Source: Vicinamibacterales bacterium
GTDB taxonomy: Bacteria > Acidobacteriota > Vicinamibacteria > Vicinamibacterales > 2-12-FULL-66-21
Reading direction: 5' to 3'
Assembly: GCA_036257535.1 (NCBI GenBank)
Contig: DATAFJ010000027.1
Location: 20,636-84,635 of the forward strand
DNA length: 64,000 bases
Shown here: one piece after another, positions 1,971 to 58,272 of the stretch
Numbering within the stretch: position 1 is the first letter of the stretch
Layout: every line of letters begins with the position of its first letter
Made by a program: the position numbers and the translations under genes
The notes under the pieces: generated by a model
Databases searched by the model: none
What the model was told of the DNA's origin: nothing
The model's input: the letters and a program-made list of their open reading frames with translations, nothing else

Positions 1971-2981
1971 TCAGCGATCACTCCGAGATCCCCAGCGGTC
2001 GATGTTATTGAGAATGGCGAGCGCCGTGCCCGAGAAGATCTGCTCTTTCTCTCGCGCGGGGATGTCGAGCTGTTCGATCGATGACACGGCCCGGTCGATC
2101 GATCCGAGCAAGTGGGGATAGTCGCTGCCCATGGCCATGTGATCGGCGCCGACGAGATCGCGCGCATGCCGGAGGTTGTACGGGCTGAACGTGACCGTGT
2201 CGTAGTAGAGCCGCTTGAGATACACGCTCGGCGGCGCGTCTATCTTCACCCTGCACTCCGCGAAGTCCCGGTACCCGCTGTCCAGCCGTTCCATCAGCCA
2301 CGGAATCGCACCGCCAAGATGGCCGATGAGCCACCGGATGTCCGGAAGCTCGCGAAACAGGCCGTCAAAGCACATGCGCGCCACCGCGAGCGTCGTGTCG
2401 AACGGAAATCCAACCAGCGGCCCGAGCACGTACTCGCCGAAGGGAGCGGAGTGGGCAGGCAGCATCGGATGCAGGAAGATGCAGAGACCCATCCGATTCG
2501 CTTCTTCGAAGAACGGCCGGTACACGGGCGACGTCAGCGCACGCCCGCGAATGTTGCTCAAGAGGACCACGCCGTTCATCCGCAGATCGTCGATGGCCCG
2601 GTGCAGCTCCAGGAGGGCCGCGTCAGGATCGTCCATGGGAATCGACGCGAAGCCTTTGAATCGACCGGGATGACGCGCGATGAGATCGGCATAGGCGTCG
2701 TTGACTTCACGCGCCACCGCCGCCTGGCGGTCCGCTTCCGCAAAAAACACGTTCGGCGTCGACAGGGAAATGACCTCGACGTCGATGCCGACGCGATCCA
2801 TGTCGGCGAGCCGCTTGTCCGGGTCGGTCATCGGCGGCGTGATGCCGAAGAACCGCGCCCCGCCGTACGTGATAATCGTGCGACCCGTCGGATCAGTGGT
2901 GAAAGAGAAATCCCGGCCGTGCTCCTTGATGCGATCGAAGAACGCGGCCGGGTAATAGTGGGTATGAAGGTCGTACTTCAA
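1971..2981 (-). CDS. Amidohydrolase family 2 (ACMSD-like metal-dependent hydrolase)
   Basis: ORF 1971..3050. KYDLHTHYYP (HxH metal site), HLGGAIPWLMERLD, MGSDYPH. The first 23 tracked codons are read out of a heptamer array, so I place the start at TTG 2981 (MKYDLHTH...). Confidence 0.85.
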   Translation of the reverse strand: MKYDLHTHYYPAAFFDRIKEHGRDFSFTTDPTGRTIITYGGARFFGITPPMTDPDKRLADMDRVGIDVEVISLSTPNVFFAEADRQAAVAREVNDAYADLIARHPGRFKGFASIPMDDPDAALLELHRAIDDLRMNGVVLLSNIRGRALTSPVYRPFFEEANRMGLCIFLHPMLPAHSAPFGEYVLGPLVGFPFDTTLAVARMCFDGLFRELPDIRWLIGHLGGAIPWLMERLDSGYRDFAECRVKIDAPPSVYLKRLYYDTVTFSPYNLRHARDLVGADHMAMGSDYPHLLGSIDRAVSSIEQLDIPAREKEQIFSGTALAILNNIDRWGSRSDR

Positions 2982-3056
2982 TGCCGAATGTCCAATGCCC
3001 GATGCCCAATGCCCAGACGGAGGCCCGAAGCCCAAGGCCCCAAGCCCCAAGCCCTA
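2979..3056 (-). repeat. Heptanucleotide tandem array, 11 units, filling a stop-to-start spacer
   Basis: Sense (minus) strand: TAGGGCT TGGGGCT TGGGGCC TTGGGCT TCGGGCC TCCGTCT GGGCATT GGGCATC GGGCATT GGACATT CGGCATT G. It runs from stop TAG (3056-3054) to the TTG start (2981-2979). Confidence 0.9.
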
Positions 3057-11799: not shown

Positions 11800-11886
11800 C
11801 ATGCTGACTGCTGACTGCGGAATGCTGAACGGGGAAGCAGCATCCAGCTCCACACTCAGCAATCCACATTCAGCAGTCAGCAGGGT
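11800..11886. repeat. Palindromic heptamer array (GAATGCT/GATTGCT family)
   Basis: Period-7 parse: ACTGCTG ACTGCGG AATGCTG AACGGGG AAGCAGC ATCCAGC TCCACAC TCAGCAA TCCACAT TCAGCAG TCAGCAG. The left arm (about 11802-11833) is an imperfect reverse complement of the right arm (about 11852-11884), starting with a 13-nt exact match TGCTGACTGCTGA. Confidence 0.8.
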
Positions 11887-15556: not shown

Positions 15557-16459
15557 TCGGGCGCCGTACCGCGCGCGCCTGGCGGCCTGGTAGTAGCGCG
15601 ACGGCAGCGCGTGCCCGATTTTTTCTTCGATGAAGCTCGACGCCTCGACCAGCGCGTCGAGATCGACGCCGGTTTCGACGCCCAATCCATTCAGCATGTA
15701 GACGACATCCTCGGTTGCGACATTTCCTGTCGCGCCGGGAGCGTAGGGACATCCGCCGAGCCCGCCAGCCGACGAGTCGAACGTGCGCACGTCTCTGTCG
15801 AGCGCGACGAAGATATTAGCGAGCGCCGTGCCGCGGGTATCGTGAAAGTGCAGGGCGATTCGCTCGAGCCCCAGCGCGGGGATGAGCGCCGCAAGCGCCT
15901 CGCGTACCTGCCCGGGGTGGGCGACGCCGATCGTGTCGCTGACAGCGACTTCGAACGCCCCCATTTTCAAAAGACGCTCCGAAACGAAAATCACGCGCTC
16001 GAGCGGCACGTGTCCCTCGAACGGGCATCCGAAGGCGGTCGAGACATATCCCCGCACCCGGAGGCCGGCGTCCGTTGCGCGGCGCGCGACCTCGGCGTAC
16101 ACGGCGAGCGAATCGTCGATCGACTGGTTGATGTTCCGTCGGCTGAACGTCTCCGACGCCGCGGCAAAGATCGCGATCTCGGCTACGCCTGCGGCAATGG
16201 CGCGCTCGAGTCCGGCCGTGTTCGGCACGAGCGCCGTGTAGCGGATCCCGGGCCGTCGCGTGATCGCTGCGAAGACGTCCGCCGCGTCCGCCATCTGCGG
16301 AACCCACTTCGGGCTGACGAATGCAGACACTTCGATGACGGGCAGGCCGGCGGCGGAGAGCCGGTCGACGAAGGTAGCCTTGTCGGCCGTCCCCACGATG
16401 GCGGACTCGTTCTGCAGCCCGTCCCTGGGGCCGACCTCGACGATCGCAACGCGGGTCAC
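15548..16459 (-). CDS. hmgL: Hydroxymethylglutaryl-CoA lyase
   Basis: VAIVEVGPRDGLQNE, HFHDTRGTALAN, GLGGCPYAPGATGNVATED. GTG 16459 overlaps the upstream stop (GTGA). The tracked 403-aa ORF is extended across the BCCP gene. Confidence 0.9.
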   Translation of the reverse strand: MTRVAIVEVGPRDGLQNESAIVGTADKATFVDRLSAAGLPVIEVSAFVSPKWVPQMADAADVFAAITRRPGIRYTALVPNTAGLERAIAAGVAEIAIFAAASETFSRRNINQSIDDSLAVYAEVARRATDAGLRVRGYVSTAFGCPFEGHVPLERVIFVSERLLKMGAFEVAVSDTIGVAHPGQVREALAALIPALGLERIALHFHDTRGTALANIFVALDRDVRTFDSSAGGLGGCPYAPGATGNVATEDVVYMLNGLGVETGVDLDALVEASSFIEEKIGHALPSRYYQAARRARYGARSG

Positions 16460-16863
16460 GTCATCTCCACCAGGATCGATCCGGGCTGCACGAGCTGCCC
16501 TTCGGCGCAGCGTACTTCGGTCACTGTTCCATCCTGCGGCGCGCGAAGCGGCAGCTCCATCTTCATCGCTTCGAGAAGGATCAGCGTTTCCCCGCGGCGA
16601 ACCGTCTTCCCGGGCGCCGTGAGAATCCGGAGCACGGTGGCCGGCATCGGCGCCGACAGGTCGGTCAGCCCGCGTGAACCCCCGCGAACCTTCTCGAACC
16701 CCTTCGAACCTTTTCGAACCTTTTCGAACCTGAAGGTACGTCCATCGATGAAAACCCACGTTGCGTGCTCATCAGCGGCAACGAACGCACGGACGCGGTT
16801 CCCGTCTCGTTCCAGCAGGAGCTCGCCTGGCGCGATATCGGTAATGGTGAACTCGGCGGACAT
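16456..16863 (-). CDS. mccA: Biotin carboxyl carrier (biotinyl domain) subunit, C-terminal part of a split MccA
   Basis: Biotinylation motif EAMKME within GETLILLEAMKMELPLRAPQDGTV. The N-terminal half continues the BT domain. ATG 16863 overlaps the stop of the biotin carboxylase ORF (TGATG). Confidence 0.8.
   Translation of the reverse strand: MSAEFTITDIAPGELLLERDGNRVRAFVAADEHATWVFIDGRTFRFEKVRKGSKGFEKVRGGSRGLTDLSAPMPATVLRILTAPGKTVRRGETLILLEAMKMELPLRAPQDGTVTEVRCAEGQLVQPGSILVEMT
16671..16730. repeat. Six 10-bp units each ending CGAACC/TGAACC, inside the BCCP linker coding region
   Basis: cgcgtgaacc cccgcgaacc ttctcgaacc ccttcgaacc ttttcgaacc ttttcgaacc. On the sense strand this encodes FEKVRKGSKG FEKVRGGSRG. 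Confidence 0.85.
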
Positions 16864-18344
16864 CAGCGTCCCCACCGCTCGAGCGTCGCCCAGGGGTCTC
16901 GCTCGACGCGAGTCGCCGCAGCGGGCGGCGCCGGTGGTTTCCAGAAGCTCGCTGCAGCCTGCGCGGCGTCGGTCGGTTCCTTCGTATCGCGGAGCTCGGC
17001 GATGCGTTCTTCGACGAACGCCGTGTCGACCGTGCCCGCGCGGAATGCGGGATGGCCGAGGATTGCGCAGAGAAACGCCACGTTCGTGCGAAGCCCGAGG
17101 ATTGGATATCTCGTCAGCGCCGAAGCCGCTCGATCGATCGCAGCGTCGCGCGTTTCGGCAAACGCGATGAGCTTCGCGATGAGCGGGTCGTAATGGACGC
17201 TGATCTCGCTCCCTTCCGCGACCCCCGAATCCACCCGGATGCCGGTCCCCGACGGCTCGCGATAGAGCAGGATCCGCCCCGACTGCGGGAGAAAGTCCTC
17301 ATCGGGATCCTCGGCATAGACACGGCACTCGATCGAATGGCCGCGCTGGCTGAGCGCCTCCTGCGTCCAGGGCAACGGCGCGCCGCCGGCGACCGCAAGC
17401 TGTGCGCGGACGAGGTCCACGCCGACGACGGCTTCGGTGACGGGGTGCTCGACTTGCAGGCGGGTGTTCATTTCGAGAAAGAAGAACTGCGCCGAGTCGC
17501 CGGACCCGTCGACGAGGAACTCGACGGTGCCGGCGTTGCGGTAGCCGGCCGCGCGCGCAGCGGCAACGGCGGCGTCGCCCAGCCGCGCGCGCATTTCCGG
17601 TGTAATCCCCGGCGCCGGTGTTTCCTCGACAATCTTCTGGTGCCGGCGCTGGACGGAGCACTCGCGCTCGAAGAGATGGACAACGTGGTCGTGAGCATCG
17701 GCGAAGACCTGAACTTCGATGTGCCGCGGACGCTCGATCAGCCGTTCGACATACAGCGTGTCGTCGCCGAAGGCGGAATGCGCTTCGCGTCGCGCCGCCG
17801 GGACCGCTTCGTACGCCTCCTCGATCGTGCGGATCGCGCGCATGCCTTTCCCGCCGCCGCCTGCCGACGCTTTTACCAGAGCGGGCAGACCGACGCGCTC
17901 GATCGCGGTGACGATCCCGTTGTCTGACTGATCGGCTGGGGTGGCGCCTGGAACGACTGGCACGCCCGCGCGTTCCATCAGCCGGCGGGCGCCGATCTTC
18001 GATCCCATCCGGGCGATCACGTCGGCGGGCGGGCCGATGAACGTCAGCTTCGCATCGGCGCATGCGCCTGCCAGCGCCGGGTTCTCCGACAGAAATCCAT
18101 ATCCGGGATGCACCGCGTCGGCGCCGCTCGTCCGGGCGGCATCGACGATCTTGCGTACCGACAGATAGCTTTCACCGGCGGGCGACGGGCCGATGTGAAC
18201 GGCCCGGTCGGCCGCGCCGACGTGCGGCGCGCGGGCATCGGCCTCGGAGAACACGGCCACGCTCTCGATGCGCGCCTCGCGACACGCTCGGATGATGCGA
18301 AGCGCGATCTCGCCACGGTTTGCGACGAGCAGCCTTTGAATCAC
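16863..18344 (-). CDS. mccA: Biotin carboxylase subunit (BC + part of BT domain) of methylcrotonyl-CoA carboxylase
   Basis: RLLVANRGEIALRIIRACRE, ATP-grasp GGGGKGMR, EMNTRLQVEHPVTE. It ends before any biotinyl domain. Start placed at GTG 18344 (MIQRLLVANRGEIA); the tracked TTG 18356 lies inside the heptamer array. Confidence 0.9.
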   Translation of the reverse strand: MIQRLLVANRGEIALRIIRACREARIESVAVFSEADARAPHVGAADRAVHIGPSPAGESYLSVRKIVDAARTSGADAVHPGYGFLSENPALAGACADAKLTFIGPPADVIARMGSKIGARRLMERAGVPVVPGATPADQSDNGIVTAIERVGLPALVKASAGGGGKGMRAIRTIEEAYEAVPAARREAHSAFGDDTLYVERLIERPRHIEVQVFADAHDHVVHLFERECSVQRRHQKIVEETPAPGITPEMRARLGDAAVAAARAAGYRNAGTVEFLVDGSGDSAQFFFLEMNTRLQVEHPVTEAVVGVDLVRAQLAVAGGAPLPWTQEALSQRGHSIECRVYAEDPDEDFLPQSGRILLYREPSGTGIRVDSGVAEGSEISVHYDPLIAKLIAFAETRDAAIDRAASALTRYPILGLRTNVAFLCAILGHPAFRAGTVDTAFVEERIAELRDTKEPTDAAQAAASFWKPPAPPAAATRVERDPWATLERWGR

Positions 18345-18397
18345 GCCAGGCCCCAAGCCCTAAGCCCTAAGCCCCAAGCCCCAAGCCCCAAGCCCTA
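18345..18397 (-). repeat. Heptamer array (CTTGGGG/CTTAGGG), 6-7 units, filling the liuC-mccA spacer
   Basis: Sense (minus) strand: TAGGG CTTGGGG CTTGGGG CTTGGGG CTTAGGG CTTAGGG CTTGGGG CCTGGC GTG. It runs from stop TAG (18397-18395) to start GTG (18344-18342). Confidence 0.92.
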
Positions 18398-20769: not shown

Positions 20770-21005
20770 TACCAGCCGCAGCAGTCGGTCTTGAAGCCGC
20801 AGCGCGGGCAGCGCCACACGGCGTGCATCCGGAACATCGCGCCGCCGCACCGGTCGCAGCCGACTTCGCTCGCGCTCTGCGCGGGCCTCGTCGAGACCGG
20901 GGCATGGGGCTTGGGGCTCCGGGCTTGGGGCGTCGGGCTCAGAGCTTGGGGCATCGGGCGCAGGGCCTGGGGCTTGGGGCTTGGGGGCATCGGCCGTTCA
21001 GGCAT
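20769..21005 (-). CDS. Small Cys4 zinc-ribbon protein translationally coupled to mccB (start uncertain)
   Basis: The C-terminus ...[31 protein letters not shown] carries CxxC-X12-CxxC. Stop TAA overlaps the mccB ATG (TAATG). ATG 21005 lies 6 nt after a TATAAT. The N-terminal ~45 codons are read from the heptamer array, so the coding status of that part is unclear. Confidence 0.45.
20899..20996 (+). repeat. Degenerate GGGGCTT heptamer array, ~14 units
   Basis: Plus strand: GGGGCAT GGGGCTT GGGGCTC CGGGCTT GGGGCGT CGGGCTC AGAGCTT GGGGCAT CGGGCGC AGGGCCT GGGGCTT GGGGCTT GGGGGCA TCGGCCG. Confidence 0.88.
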
Positions 21006-26256: not shown

Positions 26257-26292
26257 ACGGATTACACGGATTACACGGAACACACGGAAACA
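26257..26292. repeat. Four tandem 9-mers (ACGGATTAC x2, ACGGAACAC, ACGGAAACA) in the ECF sigma promoter region
   Basis: acggattac acggattac acggaacac acggaaaca. The last two units contain GGAAC/GGAAAC, which resemble an ECF -35 element; TCTAAT lies 19 nt downstream of GGAAAC. Confidence 0.8.
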
Positions 26293-27343: not shown

Positions 27344-27383
27344 ATCATTCAGCATTCCACACTCATCAATCCCCACTGAGTTA
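27344..27383. repeat. Copy of the ~30-nt GATTGCTGAGTGTGGAATGCTGA element between two convergent stops
   Basis: The minus strand after TAA (27383-27381) reads CTCAGTGGGGATTGATGAGTGTGGAATGCTGAATGATCTA. On the plus strand it follows the anti-sigma TAG (27341-27343). Confidence 0.8.
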
Positions 27384-32940: not shown

Positions 32941-35070
32941 ATGCCGAACCGGCTCGCCAGCGAGCGCAGCCCCTACCTCCTTCAGCACGCGCAAAACCCG
33001 GTCGACTGGTATCCATGGGGTGAAGAGGCGTTCGAGAAGGCGCGACGCGACGACAAGCCGATTTTTCTATCGGTCGGTTACTCGACGTGCCACTGGTGCC
33101 ACGTCATGGAGCACGAGTCGTTCGAGTCCGCAGACATCGCCGAACGGCTCAACCGGGACTTCGTGTCGATCAAGGTCGACCGCGAGGAGCGTCCGGATGT
33201 AGATCGCGTGTACATGACGTTCGTGCAGGCCACCACGGGCGCCGGCGGCTGGCCGATGAGCGTCTGGCTGACACCGTCGCTCAAGCCCTTCTACGGCGGC
33301 ACGTACTATCCGCCCACGTCGAGGTGGGGGCGTCCGGGGTTCAGCGATGTGCTGGATGAGCTCGCGCGCGTCTGGAAGGGCGATCGCGCGCGCGTCGATA
33401 CTGTAGCCGACGATCTGCTCGCGCGGATTCAGGAGGCGACCGCTAAGAGCGGCGTCAGAACGGCGAGCGAAGTGGCCGGCCCGGACGCGATTCCCGCAGG
33501 CGTGGAGCAGTTCAGGCGCGCTTTCGACACACGGTATGGCGGATTCGGAGACGCGCCGAAGTTCCCACGGCCGTCGGAGCTGCTGTTTCTGTTGAGGGCC
33601 GGCGCCACCGAGATGGCGCTCGAGACGTTGCGGGCGATGGCGCTCGGCGGCATGCGTGACCACGTGGGCGGCGGCTTTCATCGCTACTCGGTCGACGCCG
33701 CCTGGCGCGTACCGCACTTCGAAAAGATGCTGTACGACCAGGCGCAGCTCGTGCTCGCGTATCTCGAAGCGTCACAGGCGAGTCGCACAGCTGGAGGCGC
33801 CGAAGGAAGCGCGGGCTTCTACGCGACGGTCGCCGAAGACACGCTCGACTACGTGCTCCGTGATCTGACCGACGACGCCGGCGGCTTTTACTCCGCTGAG
33901 GATGCCGATAGCGTGCCGCCGGAGCTCAGTGCGCAGGGACCGGGCGCCCCCAAGTCCGAAGGCGCGTTCTATCTCTGGACCGATGATGAGATCGGCGCGC
34001 TGCTCGGTGACGCCGCCGACATCGTACGCAAGCGGTTCGGCATCCAGAAGGGCGGAAACGCGCCTCACGACCCGCAGGGCGAGTTCACCGGCAAGAACAT
34101 CCTCTACGTCGATCAACCGATTGAAGACATCGCCATCAGGACCGGTAAGACGGCGGATGAAGTGATGAACGTTCTCGTTCGTACGCGCCCGGTGCTCTTC
34201 AACGCACGCGAGGAGCGCCCGCGGCCGCACCTCGACGACAAGATCCTGACGGCCTGGAACGGGCTGATGATTGCCGCGATCGCCCGTGCGGCGCGGACGT
34301 TCGGCAACGATCGCTATCTCAATGCGGCGCGGACGGCAGCGCGTTTCATACGGGCTTTGCTCTGGCAGGCAGAAACGGGCGGCACGCACGGGCGGCTGCT
34401 GCGACGCTTTCGCGCCGGTGAAGCGGCCATCGAAGGCTACTGCGAGGACTACGCCTGCCTGGTCTGGGGGCTCCTCGAGCTCTTTCAGGCGGATGGCGAT
34501 CCCGACTGGCTCGAGTGGGCGATTGCCGTCCAGAACGCACAGGACGCGCTGTTCTGGGACGACGCGGATGCCGGCTGGTTTACAACGTCGGGCCGCGACC
34601 CGTCGGTCCTGCTTCGGCTCAAGGAGGAGCACGACGGCGCCGAGCCGTCGCCCGGATCGATCTCGACGCTGAATCTCATCGTACTCTCGCACCTCACCGG
34701 CCGCGGCGAGCTCGCCGATCGCGCCGGGCGAACGCTGGCGCGCTATGGGCGGCGGTTCGGCGAGGCGGCGCGCGCGCTGCCGTTCATGCTCGCCGCGCTT
34801 GCCACGTGGCACGCCGGCTTCGAGCAGATCGTGATCGTCGGACAGCCGGATGCGCCTGACACGAAGGCGATGCATGAGGCTGTTGCACATCAGTACCGTC
34901 CCTATGCCGTCGTCATTCCCGTGGAGCCCGGCAGCCGCCAGGAGTCGCTCGCCCGGTTGATACCGGCGATCGGCGCGATGACGCTCCGCGACGGCCGCGC
35001 CACAGTGTACGTGTGCCGCAACTTCACGTGTGACGAGCCTGTTACTGATCCCGCTCGTCTCAGGCGTTAG
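32941..35070 (+). CDS. Thioredoxin-domain protein of the YyaL/DUF255 (SSP411-like) family
   Basis: [52 protein letters not shown], then a long alpha/alpha-barrel-like C-terminal region. 709 aa. Confidence 0.9.
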
Positions 35071-35093
35071 GCATTCGGCATTAGGCATTACAG
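35067..35093 (+). repeat. GGCATTN heptamer array filling a stop-to-start spacer
   Basis: TTAGGCA TTCGGCA TTAGGCA TTACAG then ATG. The stop TAG 35068-35070 is inside unit 1, and the next ATG is at 35094. Confidence 0.85.
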
Positions 35094-43133: not shown

Positions 43134-43184
43134 TTTCTCCTAGCGTCCGGCCGCAGCCGGGCCTATAATGCGCGCTCTTCCAGC

Positions 43185-46130
43185 ATGCGCGCAGCGGTCG
43201 GAGCTCTCGTTTCGCTGCTCGTCGTCGTGTGTCCTGCCGACGCCCAGTACTTCGGCCGGAACAAGGTCGAGTACGACCACTTCGACTTCCGCGTCGCACG
43301 CACCACGCACTTCGACATCTACTTCGCTGAAAAGGACGCCGCCGCCGCGGCCGACGCAGCCGTCCTCGCGGAGCGTTGGCACGATCGCCTCGTTGGGGCG
43401 TTCGGCCACCGCCTGACGCGGCGTCAACCGCTGGTCCTCTACGGCAGTCATCCCGAGTTCGCGCAGACGAACATCGTCGGCGGGTTCGTCGGCGAGGGCA
43501 CGGGCGGTGTCACCGAAGGTCTGCGCCGCCGGATCGTCATGCCGTTCGGGTACAGCCTCGCGGAAACGGATCACGTGCTCGGACATGAGATCGTTCACGC
43601 GTTCCAGTACGACATGGCGTCGACCTACGGCTCGTCCATGTTCGTGCCGCTCTGGTTCGCGGAAGGCATGGCCGAGTATCTGTCGGTCGGCCCTACGGCG
43701 CCGCAGACGACGTTGCTGATGCGCGACGCGGTGGCCTCGGGCAGGCTGCCGTCGATCGAGTCGCTCGATCATGGACGAATCTCGCCGTACCGAAGCGGCC
43801 ACGCGTTCTGGACGTGGATTGCTGAGCGGTTTGGCGGGGCAGTGATCGCGGATGTGCTGCGGCAGAAGGGACGGGCCAGCGCGCTCCGGCGGCTTGAGAA
43901 CTCGACCGGACTGAAGCGCGAGGCCCTCGACCGCGAGTGGCACGAATGGTTGAAGGAAGAGTTCCCCGCAGAGAGCGCGCACGACGTCGCACCGGGCGGC
44001 GTTCACGAGACATTCCAACCGGTCGTCACGCGCCGCAATGGTGGACGTGTGAACGTCGCGCCGGCGCTGAGCCCGAACGGCCGCCGCCTCGTGTTTCTCT
44101 CCGAGCGCGACAGATTGTCAGTCGACCTGTTTCTCGCCGACGCCGCGACCGGCAGGATTCTCCGAAAACTGCTGACGACGGCGGCGCGACCGGAGATCGA
44201 GAGCCTGCAGTCGCTGCGATCCGCTGGAGCGTGGTCGGCAGACGGACGCCGGTTCGCCTTTGCCGTCATCAGGAATGGCCGCCCCGCGCTCACGATCTTT
44301 GACGTGGGCGATGACGACCGGTCCAGGGTGGCCCGGCGCATCGACCTGGCGTCGCTCGGCGAGATCGCCGGGCCGACCTGGTCGCCCGACAGCGCCTCGA
44401 TTGCGTTCACCGGGCTTGCGGACGGCGTCACCGACTTGTACATCTACGAGCTCGGCGCGGATCGCCTGCGCCGTCTGACAACCGACGCTCATGCCGATCT
44501 GCATCCGTCGTGGTCGCCCGACGGGGCGCGGCTCGCGTTTGCCACCGATCGCTTCACGAGCGATCGCGCGACCCTGAGCGCCGGCCGGCTCGAGCTGGCG
44601 ATACTGGACATCGCGGCCGGGACTCTGAGCCGCGTGCCGGGTGACGGCGCGTCGAATCGGTACTCACCGAACTGGATGCCGGATGGCCGGACGATCGTGT
44701 TTGCGACCGACAGGAACGCGGGTCAGATCGGTCGCCTCGATCTCGCATCCAATGAGATACGGATCGTCGGAGAGCTTCCAGGCTCGGTCTCTGGACTGAC
44801 GCTGGAGAGTCCGTCGGTTGCCGTCGCCCGCGACGCCGGAGCGATTGCCGTGAGCGTCTATCGTCGCGGCGCGTTCGAGATCCACGTCGCCGGCGAATGC
44901 ACGTCCTCGACGTCAGAGCCACTGCCGACCGACGAGCCCTCGCAGTCGCCGGCACCCAATGCACCCAATGCACCCAATGCACTGGAAGCATCAGCCTACC
45001 GTCCTCGCCTGCAACTGGACGGCATCGTGCAGCCGTATCTTGCGACCGGCGGGAGCTCGTTCGGCAGCTTCGTACGGGGAGGTGCCTCGCTTTCGTTCGG
45101 CGACCTGCTCGGTGGCGAGCGCCTCGGTATCGCGGTGCAGGCGGGAACGCGCCGTTCCGACCTCGCGCTGCAGCTTCAATATCTGAATCGCGACTCGCGC
45201 TGGAACTGGGGCGTCGTCACCGAAGTCGTGCCGTATGCGCGCGGACGCTCGAGGGCGCTGGACGTCGAAGACGGGTCAGTGGTCGTGCGCGAGTCCGCGC
45301 GTGAGCTGCAGTTTCACACCCGGCTGGCTGGATTGCTCTCGTACCCGTTCAGCCGCAGCCGGCGGGTCGAGTTCAGCGCGGGGATTCGGCACATCCTCTA
45401 CGAGGAGCAACTCCGGCGGCGTGAGTACTCGGCGGCGACGGGACGGCTCGTGGGCGAGCTCAACGAGAGCAGCCGCGGCGCCGAACCGGCGGGGTTCTTC
45501 GAAGGGTCCGTCGCGTTGGTGTCGGACCGCGCGATGTACGGCCCCGTCGGTCCGATAGCGGGCGAGCGGTGGCGAGTCGAAGCTTCACCGGCCGCGGGAG
45601 AGCTTCAGTTCACGGGCGTTCTCGCCGACTACCGGCGGTACCTGATGCCCGTCAAGCCCTACACAATCGCCGCGCGGGTGATGCATTCCGCGCGGTACGG
45701 CCGCGACGCCGACGACCCGCGGCTCGTGCCGCTCTTCGCCGGCTACCGTCACCTGATTCGCGGCTACGACGCGGGCGCCTTCGGCGGCTGCGATCGGCTT
45801 GGCGACTGCGATCGCTTCGACGCGCTCTTCGGCAGCCGTCTGATGGTGGGGAACGTCGAGCTGCGCGTTCCCATCGCCGGCGCGATCGCGCGCGAGCTGA
45901 GATACGGTCCCATCCCCGCGGAAGCGTTCGCGTTTTTCGACGCCGGCATAGCCTGGACGAGCGAGGACATCCCGGCGTTTGCCGGCGGCACTCGCCGGCT
46001 CATGCGCAGCGCCGGTGCGGGCGTCCGCGTCAACGCTTTTGGGATGATCGTGGAAGTCGGCGCGGCGCGTCCGTTCGATCGCGCCCGCAACGGCTGGAAC
46101 GTCGTCTTTAATCTCCGCCCCAGCTTCTGA
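43185..46130 (+). CDS. Fusion protein: HExxH peptidase-like N-domain + TolB-type (PD40) beta-propeller + C-terminal Omp85/D15-like beta-barrel
   Basis: Signal ...LLVVVCPADAQ. VLGHEIVHAFQYDM. Five PD40-like blades (SPNGRRLVFLSERD, WSADGRRFAF, WSPDSASIAFTG, WSPDGARLAFATDR, WMPDGRTIVFATDR). C-terminus FFDAGIAW...GAGVRVNAFGMIVEVGAARPFD...NVVFNLRPSF ends in an aromatic residue, typical of outer-membrane barrels. Confidence 0.8.
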   Translation: MRAAVGALVSLLVVVCPADAQYFGRNKVEYDHFDFRVARTTHFDIYFAEKDAAAAADAAVLAERWHDRLVGAFGHRLTRRQPLVLYGSHPEFAQTNIVGGFVGEGTGGVTEGLRRRIVMPFGYSLAETDHVLGHEIVHAFQYDMASTYGSSMFVPLWFAEGMAEYLSVGPTAPQTTLLMRDAVASGRLPSIESLDHGRISPYRSGHAFWTWIAERFGGAVIADVLRQKGRASALRRLENSTGLKREALDREWHEWLKEEFPAESAHDVAPGGVHETFQPVVTRRNGGRVNVAPALSPNGRRLVFLSERDRLSVDLFLADAATGRILRKLLTTAARPEIESLQSLRSAGAWSADGRRFAFAVIRNGRPALTIFDVGDDDRSRVARRIDLASLGEIAGPTWSPDSASIAFTGLADGVTDLYIYELGADRLRRLTTDAHADLHPSWSPDGARLAFATDRFTSDRATLSAGRLELAILDIAAGTLSRVPGDGASNRYSPNWMPDGRTIVFATDRNAGQIGRLDLASNEIRIVGELPGSVSGLTLESPSVAVARDAGAIAVSVYRRGAFEIHVAGECTSSTSEPLPTDEPSQSPAPNAPNAPNALEASAYRPRLQLDGIVQPYLATGGSSFGSFVRGGASLSFGDLLGGERLGIAVQAGTRRSDLALQLQYLNRDSRWNWGVVTEVVPYARGRSRALDVEDGSVVVRESARELQFHTRLAGLLSYPFSRSRRVEFSAGIRHILYEEQLRRREYSAATGRLVGELNESSRGAEPAGFFEGSVALVSDRAMYGPVGPIAGERWRVEASPAAGELQFTGVLADYRRYLMPVKPYTIAARVMHSARYGRDADDPRLVPLFAGYRHLIRGYDAGAFGGCDRLGDCDRFDALFGSRLMVGNVELRVPIAGAIARELRYGPIPAEAFAFFDAGIAWTSEDIPAFAGGTRRLMRSAGAGVRVNAFGMIVEVGAARPFDRARNGWNVVFNLRPSF
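44952..44982 (+). repeat. In-frame 9-mer tandem (GCACCCAAT x3.4) encoding (APN)3 in a linker
   Basis: gcacccaat gcacccaat gcacccaat gcac lies within the fusion-protein CDS. It shares the CCAATGC core with the heptamers at 2979-3013. Confidence 0.85.
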
Positions 46131-48141: not shown

Positions 48142-48180
48142 GTCAGTGAGGAATGCTGATTGCTGAATGTTGAATGATCG
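48142..48180 (+). repeat. GAATGCT/GATTGCT heptamer element directly after the SPFH stop (left arm of the IVS-gene flank)
   Basis: After TAG 48139-48141: GTCAGTG AG GAATGCT GATTGCT GAATGTT GAATGAT CG. Confidence 0.85.
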
Positions 48181-48321: not shown

Positions 48322-48717
48322 ATGTCAATCTCGGAAATCCTGACGAAGCGCACTTCCGAGTTCGCTCTGGCAATCATCCGCTTCTGCGCCGCGCTGCCGC
48401 CAACCTGGGAGGCGAGGCGCATCAGCGGCCAACCGTTCGACGCCGGTACCTCAGTCGGGGCGAACTATCGGGCCACGTGCAGAGCACGTTCGAAGCGGGA
48501 ATTCACTTCAAAAATAGGCCTCGTGATTGAGGAGGCCGACGAATCCGAATACTGGCTCATGCTGCTCAAGCGCGCGGGGATCGCGAAAGGTGTCGAGCTG
48601 GATCGCCTCTTCGACGAAGCGGGTCAGTTGGTCGCCGTTTTCACACGCTCGCAGAGGACGGCAATCAGCAAGCTCGAGAAGGAAACTCTGGCTCGAAAAC
48701 GAAAGTCACAATGCTGA
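48322..48717 (+). CDS. Four-helix-bundle protein of the 23S rRNA intervening-sequence / Avd-like family
   Basis: TSEFALAIIRFCAALPPTWEARRISGQPFDAGTSVGANYRATCRARSKREFTSKIGLVIEEADESEYWLMLL matches the family pattern (..G.Q..RS..SI.AN..EG......EF...L.IA.GS..E..YWL.L). Visibly lower GC than its neighbours. Confidence 0.9.
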   Translation: MSISEILTKRTSEFALAIIRFCAALPPTWEARRISGQPFDAGTSVGANYRATCRARSKREFTSKIGLVIEEADESEYWLMLLKRAGIAKGVELDRLFDEAGQLVAVFTRSQRTAISKLEKETLARKRKSQC

Positions 48718-48801
48718 TTGCGGGAAGCTGAATGCTGATTGTTAGTGACCGGCGTTGCTTGACCACTCAGCATTCCACACTCAGCAATCTACACTGACTC
48801 A
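48715..48801. repeat. Heptamer elements downstream of the IVS-like gene (direct partial copy plus inverted right arm)
   Basis: 48727-48745 gctGAATGCTGATTGttag repeats 12 nt of the left arm. 48766-48789 CTCAGCATTCCACACTCAGCAATC is the reverse complement of the left arm 48158-48180 (18 of the first 21 positions match by hand). The minus strand after the ypfJ-like TGA (48801-48799) reads GTCAGTGTAGATTGCTGAGTGTGGAATGCTGAG. Confidence 0.85.
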
Positions 48802-51299: not shown

Positions 51300-51320
51300 G
51301 AAATGGGGAGCGAGACTTTG

Positions 51321-51851
51321 ATGCGCGCCCGGAGGCCCGTAGCGGCGGGATTTACGCTCGTCGAACTCCTCGTTGTCGTGGCAATGATCGGCGTCGTGTC
51401 GGCCATTGCGGTTCCGGCACTGCTCCGTGCCCGGATGTCCGGCAACGAGGCTTCGGCGATCGGATCGATTCGTGCGGTCAACGCGGCGGAGACGGCGTAT
51501 GCGAACTCGGCGGGGCGGGGTGGCTTCGCGGTTCTGCTCTCTACGCTCGTCACGCCGTGCGGTGCCGGGAGCGCCGGCTTCCTGTCGAGGGACCTCGCCT
51601 CCGATCCGTCAAGCAAAAGCGGTTACCGAATCACGCTCGCGGTCGGCGCGGGTGCGAACGTCGGACCGCTCGATTGCAATGGTACGGTGACGCGCACCTC
51701 CTATTACGCGACAGCGGTTCCGCTGTCGGTCGGCACGACGGGAAGGCGTGCGTTCGCGAGCAACGCCATCAACGCAATCTGGCAGAACTCCACCGGATTG
51801 CCACCGGCGGAGCCGTTCACAATCACAGCGACGACGCAGCCACTTCAATAG
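51321..51851 (+). CDS. Prepilin-type N-terminal cleavage/methylation domain protein (type IV pilin / T2SS pseudopilin-like)
   Basis: MRARRPVAAG|FTLVELLVVVAMIGVVSAIAVPALL is a class III signal with the G/FTLVE motif. ATG 51321 (tracked ATG 51303 adds 6 aa). Confidence 0.85.
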   Translation: MRARRPVAAGFTLVELLVVVAMIGVVSAIAVPALLRARMSGNEASAIGSIRAVNAAETAYANSAGRGGFAVLLSTLVTPCGAGSAGFLSRDLASDPSSKSGYRITLAVGAGANVGPLDCNGTVTRTSYYATAVPLSVGTTGRRAFASNAINAIWQNSTGLPPAEPFTITATTQPLQ

Positions 51852-51892
51852 CCCCAGGCCCCAAGCCCCAAGCCCCAGGCCCCAGGCCCAGT
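51852..51892 (-). repeat. Heptamer array (CCTGGGG/CTTGGGG) occupying the whole gap between two convergent stops
   Basis: Plus strand: TAG CCCCAGG CCCCAAG CCCCAAG CCCCAGG CCCCAGG CCCAGT TCA. The minus strand after TGA reads ACTGGG CCTGGGG CCTGGGG CTTGGGG CTTGGGG CCTGGGG. Confidence 0.92.
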
Positions 51893-52816
51893 TCATTTAT
51901 CGTGTTCGTGCTTTTCCTTGCGACGCGGCTCGAGTGAGACTTCGCCGATCCGGCGGATCCTGACGTCGCCGCCGAACGATTCCATTTCAATCTGCGCGCC
52001 GCCGCCGCCGAGCGTAAACCTCTGGCGGCTTCCGCGGCGTCCCTCGGTCGTTTCGGTCGTGGCAAACGACGTGCGCACGCTCCCCTGGTACGAGCGGGCA
52101 GACACATTGGCGCTGACGTTCTCGGGCACGGCGAGCGTGATATCGCCATTGTGGGTCGAGATGCGATAGAAGTTATCTGCGACGGTTCCTTCGTAAATGA
52201 TATCGCCGTTGACCGTAGTTGCCTCGAGGCCGGTGGCCTTCATCCCGAGCATGCGGATGTCACCATTGATCGTCTCGGCCGTGATCTCGCCGGTTGCACC
52301 CCTGATCATGATGCCTTCGTTGACGGTGTTGAGCGTCAGGCGCCCGCCCGCATTCTCGACGAAGATCTCGCCCTCGATCGACTTGAGCGACACGATGCCG
52401 GCTCCACCTTTCAGCCGGATGTCTCCGCTGACAGTCTCTACCGACACGTCGGACTGAGTGCCTTCGATCGACGCGAAGATGTGCGGCCCGCCACTGACCC
52501 TCACCGGAAGCCACGCGGGAACGGATATGACATAGTCGACTGACGCCGGCGCCCCGGAGCGGCTCGACGAAACTCTGATCTCGCCGCCTGACGTTCGAAC
52601 GCCGACCTTCGTGCGGCTGTCGTGCTCCGCCGTAACTCGCAGTTCGTCACGGTTCCAGGCCTTCACCATGACTTCGCCGGCGAAGTTATTGACCTCGAGC
52701 CGCTGGCCTTTCGTCACCGCGATGGTTTGATCGGTGGCGGGCGGCCGCGCCGTTTGCGCCGCCGCCGGAACGGCGGCCGACAGCAACATGCCGGCGACAA
52801 TCGATGCGAGCTTCAT
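51893..52816 (-). CDS. DUF4097-like putative adhesin (beta-helix repeats), secreted
   Basis: Signal MKLASIVAGMLLSAAVPAAAQ. Repeated short strands ending G(D/E)I (SGGEIRV, SGDIRL, EGEIFV, TGEITA, NGDIRM, NGDIIY, NGDITL, GGDVRI). Last gene of a sigma/anti-sigma operon. Confidence 0.8.
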   Translation of the reverse strand: MKLASIVAGMLLSAAVPAAAQTARPPATDQTIAVTKGQRLEVNNFAGEVMVKAWNRDELRVTAEHDSRTKVGVRTSGGEIRVSSSRSGAPASVDYVISVPAWLPVRVSGGPHIFASIEGTQSDVSVETVSGDIRLKGGAGIVSLKSIEGEIFVENAGGRLTLNTVNEGIMIRGATGEITAETINGDIRMLGMKATGLEATTVNGDIIYEGTVADNFYRISTHNGDITLAVPENVSANVSARSYQGSVRTSFATTETTEGRRGSRQRFTLGGGGAQIEMESFGGDVRIRRIGEVSLEPRRKEKHEHDK

Positions 52817-56856: not shown

Positions 56857-56885
56857 GAGGCCCTTTGCCCAGGCCCCAGCCCCTA
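56857..56885 (-). repeat. Short G-rich heptamer array after the M24 stop
   Basis: Minus strand: TAGGGGC TGGGGCC TGGGCAA AGGGCCT. TAG = 56885-56883. Confidence 0.75.
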
Positions 56886-58199: not shown

Positions 58200-58272
58200 G
58201 CCGCGGATTATATTCCGCGGGCCGCAGATTACGCGGACTACGGGGAGCCGACCCGTGCGATAGCATAGATAC

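What the first reader, a model, noticed from the sequence alone, without database searches (positions are those of the whole stretch)
51849..51895. Family-level rule: G-rich heptamer arrays begin exactly at stop codons, with the G-rich strand on the sense strand of the gene that just ended
G-rich heptamer arrays occur at 2979-3056, 18345-18397, 35067-35093, 51852-51892 and 56857-56885. In all five the array abuts a stop codon and the G-rich strand is the sense strand of the terminated gene. The junctions are TAGGGCTTGGGGCTT (3056, minus), TAGGGCTTGGGGCTT (18397, minus), TAGGCATTCGGCATT (35068, plus), TGAACTGGGCCTGGGGCC (51895, minus) and TAGGGGCTGGGGCC (56885, minus). In four of the five the TAG stop directly abuts or forms part of the first unit. 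At this locus the 41 nt between two convergent stops (pilin TAG, DUF4097 TGA) consists only of about six units. Only 20899-20996 breaks the rule. Placement locked to stop codon and strand is not expected from random slippage. It suggests either a 3'-end function (G4/structure-based transcript end, RNA-binding-protein site, insulator between coupled cistrons) or a selfish repeat that targets stop codons. The nearest described analogue I know is the STRR heptamers (for example CCCCAGT) of heterocystous cyanobacteria; I know of no description for a high-GC lineage like this one.
Basis: partly seen in the sequence, partly recalled or inferred. Interest (0 to 1): 0.78.

Follow-up and report, generated by a model that had tools for sequence, protein, structure and literature searches.

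The report
Stop-codon-anchored G-rich heptamer repeats
Short 7-base tandem repeats in this soil-bacterium genome really do start right at stop codons with their G-rich strand on the mRNA side, but the same placement rule was published in 2015 for Xanthomonas and Nostoc, so this is a new lineage and a sharper statement of a known, still unexplained, class of repeat.

Summary
The window (66% GC, probably Acidobacteriota/Vicinamibacteria-like) has 8 strong period-7 arrays against 0.1 expected, all of them non-coding. The five listed arrays abut the stop codons of genes supported by Pfam matches, with the G>C strand as sense strand.

A public-genome scan for GGGGCTTx3 gave 119 loci. After de-duplication, 47 of 88 G-sense arrays begin within 3 nt of the stop, against 7 of 92 in the opposite orientation (p=6e-12). 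Of the 80 with a gene called on both sides, 43 do so, against 6.3 expected from uniform placement. In Acidobacteriota the counts are 29/41 and 6/42.

The 5' end of the G strand abuts a gene boundary of either type. C-sense arrays run up to start codons. Inverted pairs are always ordered G then C (28:0).

The arrays change by whole units between near-identical strains. Unit types turn over between relatives while the arrangement is kept.

This is not new in kind. Rehm et al. 2015 described the same strand and stop-codon bias for G-rich heptamers in Xanthomonas (itself high-GC) and Nostoc.

Best reading (about 0.4): slippage-driven repeats whose self-folding G/U-rich strand sits directly after the stop as a 3'-end element. 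I found no evidence for a stop-targeting mobile element.

The parts
51852..51892 (-). Focal array of about 6 units, GGGCCTG / GGGGCCT / GGGGCTT. The G strand is on the minus strand, which is the sense strand of DUF4097. It fills the entire convergent spacer.
   Evidence: RNA fold with G4 allowed is -40.8 kcal/mol, against -12.1 for the C-rich strand. One unit fewer in L120/L123, with identical flanks in the aligned stretch.
51893..52816 (-). DUF4097 gene. Its TGA stop (51893-51895) lies 3 nt from the first G-tract of the array.
   Evidence: Pfam PF13349, E=2.9e-16. An identical protein is found on 4 JGI contigs.
51303..51851 (+). Pilin-like gene (N-terminal methylation motif). Its TAG stop (51849-51851) abuts the C-rich side of the same array.
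   Evidence: Pfam PF07963. JGI gene calls give a 155-aa version with the same stop.
3023..3053 (-). GGGGCTT-type array that starts at the TAG (3054-3056) of the BNR/Sortilin-like gene.
2982..3015 (-). GGGCATT / GGCATTN units that continue the same spacer down to the TTG start (2979-2981) of the amidohydrolase gene.
   Evidence: The Pfam Amidohydro_2 match begins at residue 3.
18345..18394 (-). Seven GGGGCTT / GGGCTTA units that fill the 50-nt spacer from the TAG of the enoyl-CoA hydratase gene (18395-18397) to the GTG start of the biotin carboxylase gene (18342-18344).
   Evidence: Biotin_carb_N aligns 1-110 of 110 from that start.
20899..20996 (+). Degenerate GGGGCTT-type array of about 13 units in a divergent spacer. 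The G strand points away from the minus-strand carboxyltransferase gene (start 20850).
   Evidence: It matches the 'upstream, non-coding strand' class of Rehm 2015.
35071..35093 (+). Three GGCATTN units that fill the 23-nt spacer from the TAG of the DUF255 gene to the ATG of an enoyl-CoA hydratase gene.
   Evidence: The orthologous spacer in L045 has no array.
56857..56882 (-). Degenerate array (GGGGCTG GGGCCTG GGCAAAG GGCCTCG) that starts at the TAG (56883-56885) of the M24 peptidase gene.
   Evidence: The orthologue in L046 (67% nt identity) has a 6-unit GGGGCTT array at the same stop.
48142..48178 (+). TGCTGAN / GAATGCT array. The TRF call starts 9 nt after the TAG of the Band_7 gene, and unit-like sequence begins 1 nt after it. 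The G-type strand is sense.
48764..48798 (-). 14-mer (2x7) array, GAGTGTGGAATGCT, that starts at the TGA (48799-48801) of the Zn-peptidase gene. It pairs with the inverted arm at 48710-48742.
   Evidence: Hairpin of -33.8 kcal/mol.
27344..27380 (-). Array of the same 14-mer family that fills a 37-nt convergent spacer. The G-type strand is sense for the minus-strand gene that ends at 27381-27383 (TAA).

Best explanation
These are hypermutable heptanucleotide simple-sequence repeats of the G-tract class. That is the same kind as the GGGAATC repeats of Xanthomonas, the GGGGA(C/T)T repeats of Nostoc, and the cyanobacterial STRR heptamers.

They grow and shrink by replication slippage of whole 7-nt units. 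A period that is not a multiple of 3 presumably keeps them out of coding DNA (inferred).

Their strand polarity relative to genes is set at the RNA level. The G/U-rich strand folds on its own, as a G-quadruplex when there are at least 4 G-tracts and otherwise as G.U/G-C hairpins. It can therefore occupy the position directly after a stop codon. There it stands in for, or acts as, the transcript's 3'-end structure: a barrier to 3' exonucleases or a terminator-like hairpin, especially when an inverted C-arm follows.

The complementary C/A-rich strand is unstructured. It is tolerated, and possibly useful, as a leader right up to start codons. With nothing else needed between the stop codon and the array, the array begins at the stop, often with TAG or TGA in register with the unit's TGG.

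Shown: the placement statistics, slippage, unit turnover with the arrangement kept, and predicted folding. Inferred: that the RNA structure is what selection sees, and what that structure does.
For: Placement. After de-duplication, G-sense arrays begin within 3 nt of the stop in 47/88 cases, against 7/92 for C-sense arrays (p=6e-12). Of the 80 G-sense arrays with a gene called on both sides, 43 do so, against 6.3 expected under uniform placement. In Acidobacteriota the counts are 29/41 against 6/42.

Convergent spacers. With a single array present, it abuts the stop of the gene for which it is G-sense in 16/25 cases, and the other gene's stop in 2/25.

Start codons. C-sense arrays reach the start codon (within 3 nt) in 16/77 cases, against 4/69 for G-sense arrays. 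These cases have no Shine-Dalgarno sequence.

Inverted pairs. The order is G then C in 28 spacers and the reverse in none. A complementary arm lies 3' of the G strand in 42 arrays and 5' of it in 2.

Folding. The focal G-sense RNA gives -40.8 kcal/mol with a G4, against -12.1 for its complement. Other G-sense arrays give -25 to -30 kcal/mol as G.U hairpins.

Occupancy of the position after the stop. The gap between a stop and a downstream C-sense array is more structured than shuffles (mean z -1.1, 26% with z<-2), whereas array-to-start gaps are not (z 0.05; p=0.008). No extra structure follows stop-adjacent G arrays (z -0.24). The focal spacer has no terminator-like site.

Copy number. Arrays not used to select the loci peak at 4 G-tracts, as in Rehm 2015.

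Slippage. There is one 7-nt unit of difference between strains that differ by 6-14 SNPs over 19 kb.

Arrangement kept despite unit turnover. L025 and L062 (84% identity) carry GGGAGTC+GAGAACC and GGCAAAA+AAGCCCC in the same spacer. In both, a G>C array sits at the stop and a C>G array at the start. An array sits at the M24 peptidase stop in both the window and L046.
Against: There are no transcript data, so neither 3' ends nor G4 or hairpin formation in vivo is shown.

A 3'-end stabiliser does not obviously need to start within 3 nt of the stop.

Non-G4 units follow the rule only weakly (10/30 against 2/29).

Three arrays in this very window are G-sense and run up to the next start codon (18345-18394, 2982-3053, 35071-35093). 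That does not fit the idea that G-type RNA is excluded from leaders, unless their GGGG acts like a Shine-Dalgarno sequence.

A DNA-level polar process predicts most of the same statistics.

Gene models in the 119 loci are my own codon-usage calls. Stop positions are reliable; start positions are less so.
Confidence: 0.4

Rival explanations
1. DNA-level polar pruning. The G-rich strand forms a G4 or hairpin that blocks replication. The resulting deletions remove DNA on the 5' side of the G strand, until selection stops them at the first indispensable base, which is a stop or start codon. Polarity and exact abutment are then mutational by-products and the arrays need have no function.
For: The rule mirrors itself at both kinds of gene boundary. 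The 5' end of the G strand is the end nearer to a gene in 120 arrays against 28, and it abuts stops and starts alike. Pairs ordered G then C are stable under this model, while the reverse order would erase itself; the counts are 28:0. The stop codon is in register with the unit more often than chance (28/54, p=4e-4), as junctions formed at microhomology would be. G4-forming repeats are genetically unstable in E. coli (PMC10530614). From my own knowledge, not checked here: G4-induced deletions in C. elegans dog-1 mutants extend to the 5' side of the G tract.
Against: Polar deletion of this kind has not been shown in bacteria. The rule also holds, more weakly, for units that cannot form a G4. 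Flank degeneracy is symmetric, so no footprint of the process is visible. The model does not explain the peak at four G-tracts. It also does not explain why arrays persist at the same stop across 67% nucleotide divergence.
Confidence: 0.25
2. Protein-binding arrays. The 7-nt period matches the footprint of single-strand RNA-binding OB folds such as cold-shock or S1 domains. G-type arrays after stops and C-type arrays before starts would then be multivalent sites for such proteins, or anti-Rho and pro-Rho tracts, that tune operon polarity and translation initiation.
For: The period is strictly 7 across many unit sequences and at least 8 labelled taxonomic groups. C-sense arrays replace the Shine-Dalgarno region right up to the ATG. 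MacGregor 2015 proposed S1, Csp or CsrA binding for TAACTGA heptamers next to start codons (PMC4679880). C-rich, G-poor RNA is the known preference of Rho (established knowledge).
Against: Unit sequences are very diverse within one genome and differ at orthologous spacers. That argues against a sequence-specific binder. No candidate protein was identified. About as many stop-adjacent arrays lie in convergent spacers (21), where there is no downstream cistron to regulate, as in co-directional ones (22).
Confidence: 0.15
3. A selfish repeat or miniature mobile element that inserts at stop codons in a fixed orientation.
For: The same unit, GGGGCTT, recurs at many loci and in several phyla. Junctions are sharp. 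Three copies of the 14-mer family in the window share the junction 'stop + 1 nt + TCAGTG', and L145 has it too. In the three filled/empty orthologous pairs I compared, the filled site has TAG and the empty site TGA or TAA.
Against: I saw no terminal inverted repeats or target-site duplications at the junctions I read, and no transposase-like gene among the flanking genes I scanned. None of these was searched for systematically. Arrays equally abut start codons. Units differ between orthologous spacers. Copy number changes by single units. Many unrelated unit families obey the same rule. The stop occupies every phase of the unit.
Confidence: 0.05
4. An artefact: chance, assembly slippage or gene-calling error.
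For: Copy number differs between assemblies at one array. The gene models for the external loci are my own.
Against: The arrays are 20-90 nt, which should be shorter than typical sequencing reads. They occur in isolates, short-read MAGs and long-read MAGs from many projects. There are 8 period-7 arrays against 0.1 in shuffles. The flanking genes in the window have Pfam matches. The statistics depend on stop codons, which do not depend on start prediction.
Confidence: 0.02

Closest known systems
G-quadruplex-forming heptameric SSRs of Xanthomonas (GGGAATC) and Nostoc (GGGGA(C/T)T), Rehm et al. 2015, PLoS One (PMC4692102)
   Same: Tandem heptamers made of a G3-4 tract plus 3-4 other bases. Strongly non-coding. 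Closest to the ORF on the 5' side of the G strand, whatever that ORF's orientation. Within 0-50 bp of the stop on the coding strand, including overlapping the stop, or upstream of ORFs on the non-coding strand. A preference for four G-tracts. Copy number varies between relatives. Inverted pairs occur. Function unknown (compared).
   Different: The unit sequence (GGGGCTT / GGGGCCT) and the lineage (Acidobacteriota, plus Planctomycetota, Gemmatimonadales, Chloroflexota and others). In my sample convergent spacers are the most often occupied (28%, against 15% for co-directional and 15% for divergent), whereas Rehm reports enrichment between aligned ORFs and depletion between divergent ones. The points measured here that I did not find in the sections of the paper I read are abutment within 3 nt, the stop being in register with the unit, the strict G-then-C order, and unit turnover with the arrangement kept.
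STRR (short tandemly repeated repetitive) heptamers of heterocystous cyanobacteria, for example CCCCAGT. The unit sequences are recalled from my own knowledge; Rehm cites the Calothrix report.
   Same: Several heptamer families in each genome, tandem and intergenic. One family (CCCCA[A/G]T) is close to the CCCCAAG / CCCCAGG seen here.
   Different: A different phylum and different unit sequences. STRR is defined by particular cyanobacterial sequences. No stop-codon rule is part of its definition, as far as I know.
TAACTGA direct repeats of Beggiatoaceae, Cyanobacteria and Bacteroidetes (MacGregor 2015, PMC4679880)
   Same: Heptamer arrays in intergenic DNA, placed within a few nucleotides of a codon boundary and replacing a canonical ribosome-binding site. 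A post-transcriptional role has been proposed.
   Different: Those repeats sit mainly just upstream of start codons, are A/T-rich and belong to a single unit family. Here the main class sits just after stops and is G-rich.
REP/BIME extragenic palindromes of enterobacteria (own knowledge)
   Same: Dispersed short repeats in 3' untranslated spacers, often close to stop codons, that fold in the mRNA and stabilise upstream transcripts. Pairs of a G-array and an inverted C-array here form comparable hairpins.
   Different: REPs are imperfect palindromes of fixed length spread by RAYT transposases. They are not tandem heptamers that change by slippage. I did not look for RAYT.
Intrinsic (Rho-independent) terminators
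   Same: A structured RNA located immediately after a stop codon.
   Different: There is no hairpin-plus-U-tract architecture at the focal locus. Single arrays have no defined stem-loop.

Membership tests
G-rich (G4-type) heptameric SSRs sensu Rehm et al. 2015 | Head-to-tail repeats of a 7-nt unit containing a run of 3-4 G | tested here: met
   TRF period 7 with consensus GCCCCAG / GCCCCAA / CCAAGCC / GGGGCTT. The unit spectrum in relatives is dominated by GGG(G)NNN types.
G-rich (G4-type) heptameric SSRs sensu Rehm et al. 2015 | Strong over-representation in non-coding DNA | tested here: met
   All 8 strong period-7 arrays lie in the roughly 11% of the window that is non-coding. Shuffles give 0.1 arrays. 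Across the loci, period 7 gives 352 arrays, against 94 for period 6 and 102 for period 8.
G-rich (G4-type) heptameric SSRs sensu Rehm et al. 2015 | Downstream of ORFs: close to or overlapping the stop codon, with the G-rich strand on the coding strand | tested here: met
   47/88 within 3 nt, against 7/92 for the other orientation. 5 of 5 arrays listed in the window.
G-rich (G4-type) heptameric SSRs sensu Rehm et al. 2015 | Upstream of ORFs: close to the start, with the G-rich strand on the non-coding strand | tested here: met
   C-sense arrays lie within 3 nt of a possible start in 16/77 cases, against 4/69 for G-sense arrays. The window array at 20899-20996 is of this class.
G-rich (G4-type) heptameric SSRs sensu Rehm et al. 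2015 | Preference for four units (four G-tracts) | tested here: met
   Arrays not used for selecting the loci peak at 4 G-tracts (18, against 8 with 3 and 6 with 5). The sample is small.
G-rich (G4-type) heptameric SSRs sensu Rehm et al. 2015 | Enriched between aligned ORFs and depleted between divergent ORFs | tested here: inconclusive
   Spacer occupancy is 15% co-directional, 28% convergent and 15% divergent. The loci were selected for containing an array, so the sampling is biased.
G-rich (G4-type) heptameric SSRs sensu Rehm et al. 2015 | Oligonucleotides form G-quadruplexes in vitro | not testable with these tools
   Prediction only: ViennaRNA with G4 allowed gives -40.8 kcal/mol with a G4 for the focal array.
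STRR heptamers of heterocystous cyanobacteria | One of the specific STRR unit sequences, in a heterocystous cyanobacterium | tested here: not met
   The units here are GGGGCTT / GGGGCCT / GGCATTN / TGCTGAN. The nearest relatives of the window are Acidobacteriota contigs. The STRR sequences are recalled from memory, not checked.
Intrinsic terminator | A GC-rich hairpin followed by a U-tract | tested here: not met
   No terminator-like site in or next to 51852-51892.
REP/BIME-type extragenic palindromes | An imperfect palindrome of fixed length, with an associated RAYT transposase in the genome | tested here: not met
   Single arrays are direct repeats with no dyad. Only about a quarter of arrays have an inverted partner. 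I did not search for RAYT.
Phase-variation (contingency) SSRs | The repeat lies inside an ORF or between promoter elements, so that changes in unit number switch expression | tested here: not met
   The arrays lie after stop codons or fill inter-cistronic spacers of housekeeping or metabolic genes. The one-unit polymorphism at the focal array alters no reading frame.

The most novel reading that the evidence does not exclude
Heptamer arrays form a modular system for untranslated regions, shared by several phyla and continually rewritten. A self-folding G/U-rich array placed exactly at the stop codon replaces the conventional terminator or 3' stabiliser. Its unstructured C/A-rich complement, placed exactly at the start codon, replaces the Shine-Dalgarno leader. 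Slippage keeps changing the unit sequence while selection keeps the arrangement. This would explain why heptamer SSRs are over-represented in large high-GC genomes.
Probability: 0.2. Interest if true: 0.7.

Novelty: new member of a known kind. Interest (0 to 1): 0.42.

Why it matters
Heptamer repeats have been noted as over-represented among bacterial SSRs since 2007, according to Rehm et al. 2015. As far as I could find, their function is still unknown.

This lineage shows the positional rule in an unusually clean form. In Acidobacteriota, 71% of G-sense arrays begin within 3 nt of the stop. Whole spacers are built only of arrays, and the arrangement is kept while the units turn over.

That makes two clear hypotheses testable with one Term-seq or rG4-seq experiment in a cultured Vicinamibacteria strain: an RNA 3'-end element, or polar DNA-level pruning.

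There is also a practical point. Annotators and assemblers should expect unit-number polymorphism exactly at gene ends in these genomes.

Tried and rejected
(1) A 'conveyor-belt' model, with new units added at the gene side and old units decaying distally. The identity of flanking 7-nt windows to the phased consensus is at background level (0.25-0.33) on both sides. Rejected.

(2) An association of the arrays with the four-helix-bundle (PF05635) gene that is flanked by arrays at 48322-48717. tblastn found no other copy in the 119 loci. It is not a general feature.

(3) A protein-based search for orthologous DUF4097 loci in metagenome contigs found no relatives. I used exact-protein look-ups instead. 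Two other exact look-ups, for the biotin carboxylase and the Zn-peptidase, found nothing.

(4) The metagenome scan for the 14-mer family gave mostly chance 17-mer hits. Only 4 loci could be evaluated.

(5) A literature search by unit sequence gave no relevant paper. Nothing on heptamers in Vicinamibacteria was found.

(6) Rfam gave only a tRNA in the window.

(7) The idea that the unit derives from a terminator 3' arm plus U-tract (GGGGC-TT). This predicts C-then-G order in inverted pairs, which is never seen (0 against 28). Rejected.

(8) Orientation alone is not biased in co-directional spacers: 49 G-sense against 48 C-sense. The rule concerns which end abuts the gene, not which strand is more common.
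Full report
WHAT IS THERE

The window is 65-68% GC throughout. Tandem Repeats Finder reports eight period-7 arrays with score >=38, whereas composition-matched shuffles give 0.1. All eight lie in the roughly 11% of the window that my codon-usage gene model leaves non-coding.

Their junctions read as claimed:
- TAG|GGCTTGGGGCTT at 3056 and at 18397, both on the minus strand
- TAG|GCATTCGGCATT at 35068-35070, plus strand
- TGA|ACT|GGGCCTGGGGCC at 51895, minus strand
- TAG|GGGCTGGGGCC at 56885, minus strand

The genes that end there all have Pfam matches: a BNR/Sortilin-like protein, an enoyl-CoA hydratase, a DUF255 thioredoxin-like protein, DUF4097 and an M24 peptidase. The focal 41-nt spacer (51852-51892) lies between a protein with an N-terminal methylation (pilin-type) motif and DUF4097. 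It contains nothing but about six units.

Listing every intergenic spacer shows several more points.

Several unit families are present. They are GGGGCTT / GGGGCCT; GGCATTN; and a TGCTGAN / GAGTGTGGAATGCT family at 11802-11885, 27344-27380, 48142-48178, 48710-48742 and 48764-48798.

Three arrays (2982-3053, 18345-18394, 35071-35093) run from the stop codon of one gene to the start codon of the next co-directional gene. Pfam alignments that begin at residues 1-11 support those starts.

The TGCTGAN-type arrays also keep the polarity, with the G>C strand as sense strand and the G-type arm first. All of them begin at a stop codon except the pair at 11802-11885, whose G-type arm starts about 57 nt after the stop.

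Its G strand is on the non-coding strand.

IS THE RULE MORE THAN CHANCE?

Within the window the evidence is thin, because arrays that fill a whole spacer abut the stop automatically. I therefore scanned one genome per species for GGGGCTTx3.

By record title, 46 loci are Acidobacteriota, many of them Vicinamibacterales. The rest include Planctomycetota/Phycisphaerae, Gemmatimonadales, Chloroflexota, Lysobacteraceae and other Pseudomonadota, Actinomycetota and Cyanobacteriota. Window genes match Acidobacteriota loci at 67-70% nucleotide identity. The window is therefore probably from that phylum; this is an inference.

TRF on all loci gives 352 period-7 arrays, against 94 for period 6 and 102 for period 8. 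I called genes by codon usage in the 107 sequences with GC >=0.58 and oriented each G/C-skewed intergenic array on its G strand. The results are:

- When the 5' neighbour is a sense-strand stop, the median distance is 3 nt and 47 of 88 arrays begin within 3 nt. When an antisense stop faces the 3' end, the median is 60 nt and 7 of 92 are within 3 nt (Fisher p=6e-12). Among the 80 G-sense arrays with a gene called on both sides, 43 begin within 3 nt, against 6.3 expected under uniform placement in the spacer.
- In Acidobacteriota the figures are 29/41 against 6/42 (p=1.7e-7). The same direction is seen in every other labelled group, though only Planctomycetota reaches significance on its own.
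- In convergent spacers with a single array, it abuts the stop of the gene for which it is G-sense in 16/25 cases and the other gene's stop in 2/25.
- Orientation as such is not biased in co-directional spacers: 49 against 48. What is fixed is which end touches the gene.

THE WIDER RULE

The 5' end of the G strand is the end nearer to a gene in 120 arrays against 28. This holds at start codons too. C-sense arrays run to within 3 nt of a possible in-frame start in 16/77 cases, against 4/69 for G-sense arrays. A typical example is ...CCCCAAGCCCCAAGCCCC|ATG, with no Shine-Dalgarno sequence.

Where a spacer holds two arrays in inverted orientation, the order is always G-array then C-array: 28 spacers against 0. 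A complementary arm lies within 80 nt on the 3' side of the G strand in 42 arrays and on the 5' side in 2. Many convergent spacers are built entirely of arrays, with each half G-sense for its own gene.

The stop codon is in register with the unit, so that T[AG][AG] stands where the unit has TGG, in 28/54 junctions against about 15 expected (p=4e-4). TAG is enriched at these junctions: 33/63, against 196/682 for all called genes (p=2e-4).

Units that cannot form a G-quadruplex follow the rule more weakly when oriented by G>C: 10/30 against 2/29. Three of four evaluable metagenome loci carrying the 14-mer family also start at a stop.

DYNAMICS

Four JGI contigs encode the identical DUF4097 protein. 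Three of them (L122, L123, L124) align to the window over 11.8-19 kb; the fourth (L121) is a 2.6-kb fragment that covers only the focal spacer.

Over about 19 kb, L122 and L123 differ from the window by 14 and 6 SNPs. L124's count is distorted by a misaligned contig end. The only credible indels are:
- one 7-nt unit in the focal array (5 units in L120/L123, against 6 in the window and L121)
- 72 nt in an in-frame 9-mer repeat at 44967
- one base in the four-helix-bundle gene

So the arrays change by whole units, as slippage predicts. The other heptamer arrays on these contigs show no differences.

At deeper divergence, the orthologous M24 peptidase stop carries an array both in the window (degenerate) and in L046 (six units), at 67% nucleotide identity. 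Other orthologous spacers are filled in one genome and empty in the other: L112 against window 43134-43184, and window 35071-35093 against L045.

L025 and L062, at 84% identity, carry different units in the same spacer (GGGAGTC+GAGAACC against GGCAAAA+AAGCCCC). Both have a G>C array at the stop and a C>G array at the start. The arrangement persists while the sequence turns over. The flanks of arrays show no gradient of decayed units on either side.

HOW IT MOST LIKELY WORKS

The two strands behave differently as RNA. The focal G-sense RNA is predicted to form a G-quadruplex (-40.8 kcal/mol). Other G-sense arrays form G.U/G-C hairpins of -25 to -30 kcal/mol. The C-sense RNA of the focal array reaches only -12 kcal/mol. 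Inverted pairs give long hairpins of -34 to -69 kcal/mol.

Arrays not used for selecting the loci peak at four G-tracts. The focal spacer has no terminator-like site.

The stretch between a stop and a downstream C-sense array is more structured than shuffles (mean z -1.1). Array-to-start stretches are not (z 0.05; p=0.008). Nothing structured follows stop-adjacent G arrays (z -0.24).

My best reading (confidence 0.4) is that these are slippage-driven heptamer SSRs whose G/U-rich strand can itself be the structured 3'-end element of the upstream gene. It therefore sits in the position directly after the stop. The unstructured complement can serve as a leader and sits directly before starts. The placement, the dynamics and the predicted folds are shown. 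The functional step is inferred.

The main rival (0.25) is a DNA-level polar process, in which structure-induced replication blocks cause deletions on the 5' side of the G strand until selection halts them at a codon boundary. It explains the mirror symmetry and the G-then-C order equally well. G4 repeats are unstable in E. coli (PMC10530614).

An RNA-binding-protein or Rho-related role is possible (0.15). A stop-targeting mobile element is unlikely (0.05). Arrays abut starts as well, units differ at orthologous sites, change is by single units, and I saw no target-site duplication or transposase-like gene.

COMPARISON WITH WHAT IS KNOWN

Rehm et al. 2015 (PMC4692102) studied G-rich heptamers in Xanthomonas (GGGAATC), which to my knowledge is about 65% GC, and in Nostoc (GGGGA(C/T)T). 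They report:
- a non-coding bias
- a preference for four units
- proximity to the ORF on the 5' side of the repeat, whatever that ORF's orientation
[quoted passage not shown] - G4 formation in vitro
- variation between Xcc and Xac
- no established function

Five of the seven defining features I listed for that class were tested here and met (see the membership table). The spacer-type preference was inconclusive, and G4 formation in vitro cannot be tested with these tools. The arrays here are therefore a new member of that kind, with a new unit and in new phyla.

STRR heptamers and the TAACTGA repeats (PMC4679880) are analogues, not the same family.

Compared with the sections of Rehm's paper that I read, the data here add:
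- abutment within 3 nt rather than within 50 bp
- the stop codon in register with the unit
- exact abutment at start codons
- the strict G-then-C order
- conservation of the arrangement despite unit turnover
- the breadth across phyla

VERDICT

The novelty is 'new member of a known kind'. Interest is moderate (0.42). The rule is striking and statistically very strong, and the function of bacterial heptamer repeats is still open, but the central claim has been in print since 2015.

Noticed in passing
window 48322-48717 (+): A four-helix-bundle gene of the '23S rRNA-intervening sequence protein' family (PF05635, the family that to my knowledge includes DGR Avd proteins) sits alone in a 657-nt convergent spacer. 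TGCTGAN-type arrays bracket it on both sides, and its own TGA stop lies inside the first unit of the downstream array. In strain contig L122 a 1-nt insertion at window 48431 truncates it to 64 aa. No other copy was found in the 119 loci.
   Followed up: partly
window 44952-44982, inside gene 43185-46130 (+): An in-frame 9-mer repeat (GCACCCAAT, 3.4 copies here) differs by 72 nt (eight units) in L123. The JGI gene products are 996 aa (L122) and 1005 aa (L123), against 981 aa in the window. This is a length-variable repeat protein with no Pfam hit on record.
   Followed up: partly
window 27347-27380, 48764-48798, 48142-48178; L145 1470-1516: Copies of the 14-mer family share more than periodicity. 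Each begins 'stop codon + 1 nt + TCAGTG', followed by GATTG[C/A]TGAGTGTGGAATGCTGA. That looks like a dispersed element of about 35 nt rather than independently grown arrays.
   Followed up: partly
window 26257-26288: A 9-mer array (ACGGATTAC, 3.6 copies) lies in the divergent spacer upstream of an ECF sigma-factor gene. A related GCGGATTA / GCAGATTAC motif occurs at about 58200-58240 in another divergent spacer.
   Followed up: no
window 16676-16731: A 10/20-mer array (CGAACCTTTT, 4.7 copies) lies just downstream of the biotin carboxylase stop (16863). It falls inside a weakly supported 139-aa ORF (16456-16875, minus strand) that may not be a real gene.
   Followed up: no
L054 2109-2227 and 3288-3380 (Ca. 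Ribeiella danica, Chloroflexota): Several heptamer arrays of different units lie inside one uninterrupted 3195-nt open frame. Either the arrays are translated there, or stop-free arrays fuse neighbouring ORFs in naive ORF calling.
   Followed up: no
L005, L006, L010, L012, L013, L028, L114: MAGs labelled 'uncultured Bifidobacteriaceae' carry many GGGGCTT arrays. L010 shares 68-71% nucleotide identity over about 3 kb with an Acidobacteriota contig (L032). That makes me doubt the label or the binning.
   Followed up: no
window 18345-18394 and 2982-3053: Within an apparent liu-like operon (carboxyltransferase, enoyl-CoA hydratase, biotin carboxylase), and between a BNR protein and an amidohydrolase, the entire inter-cistronic spacer is G-sense array up to GTG/TTG start codons. 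The only Shine-Dalgarno-like sequence is the array's own GGGG. G-sense arrays this close to a start are rare elsewhere (4/69).
   Followed up: partly
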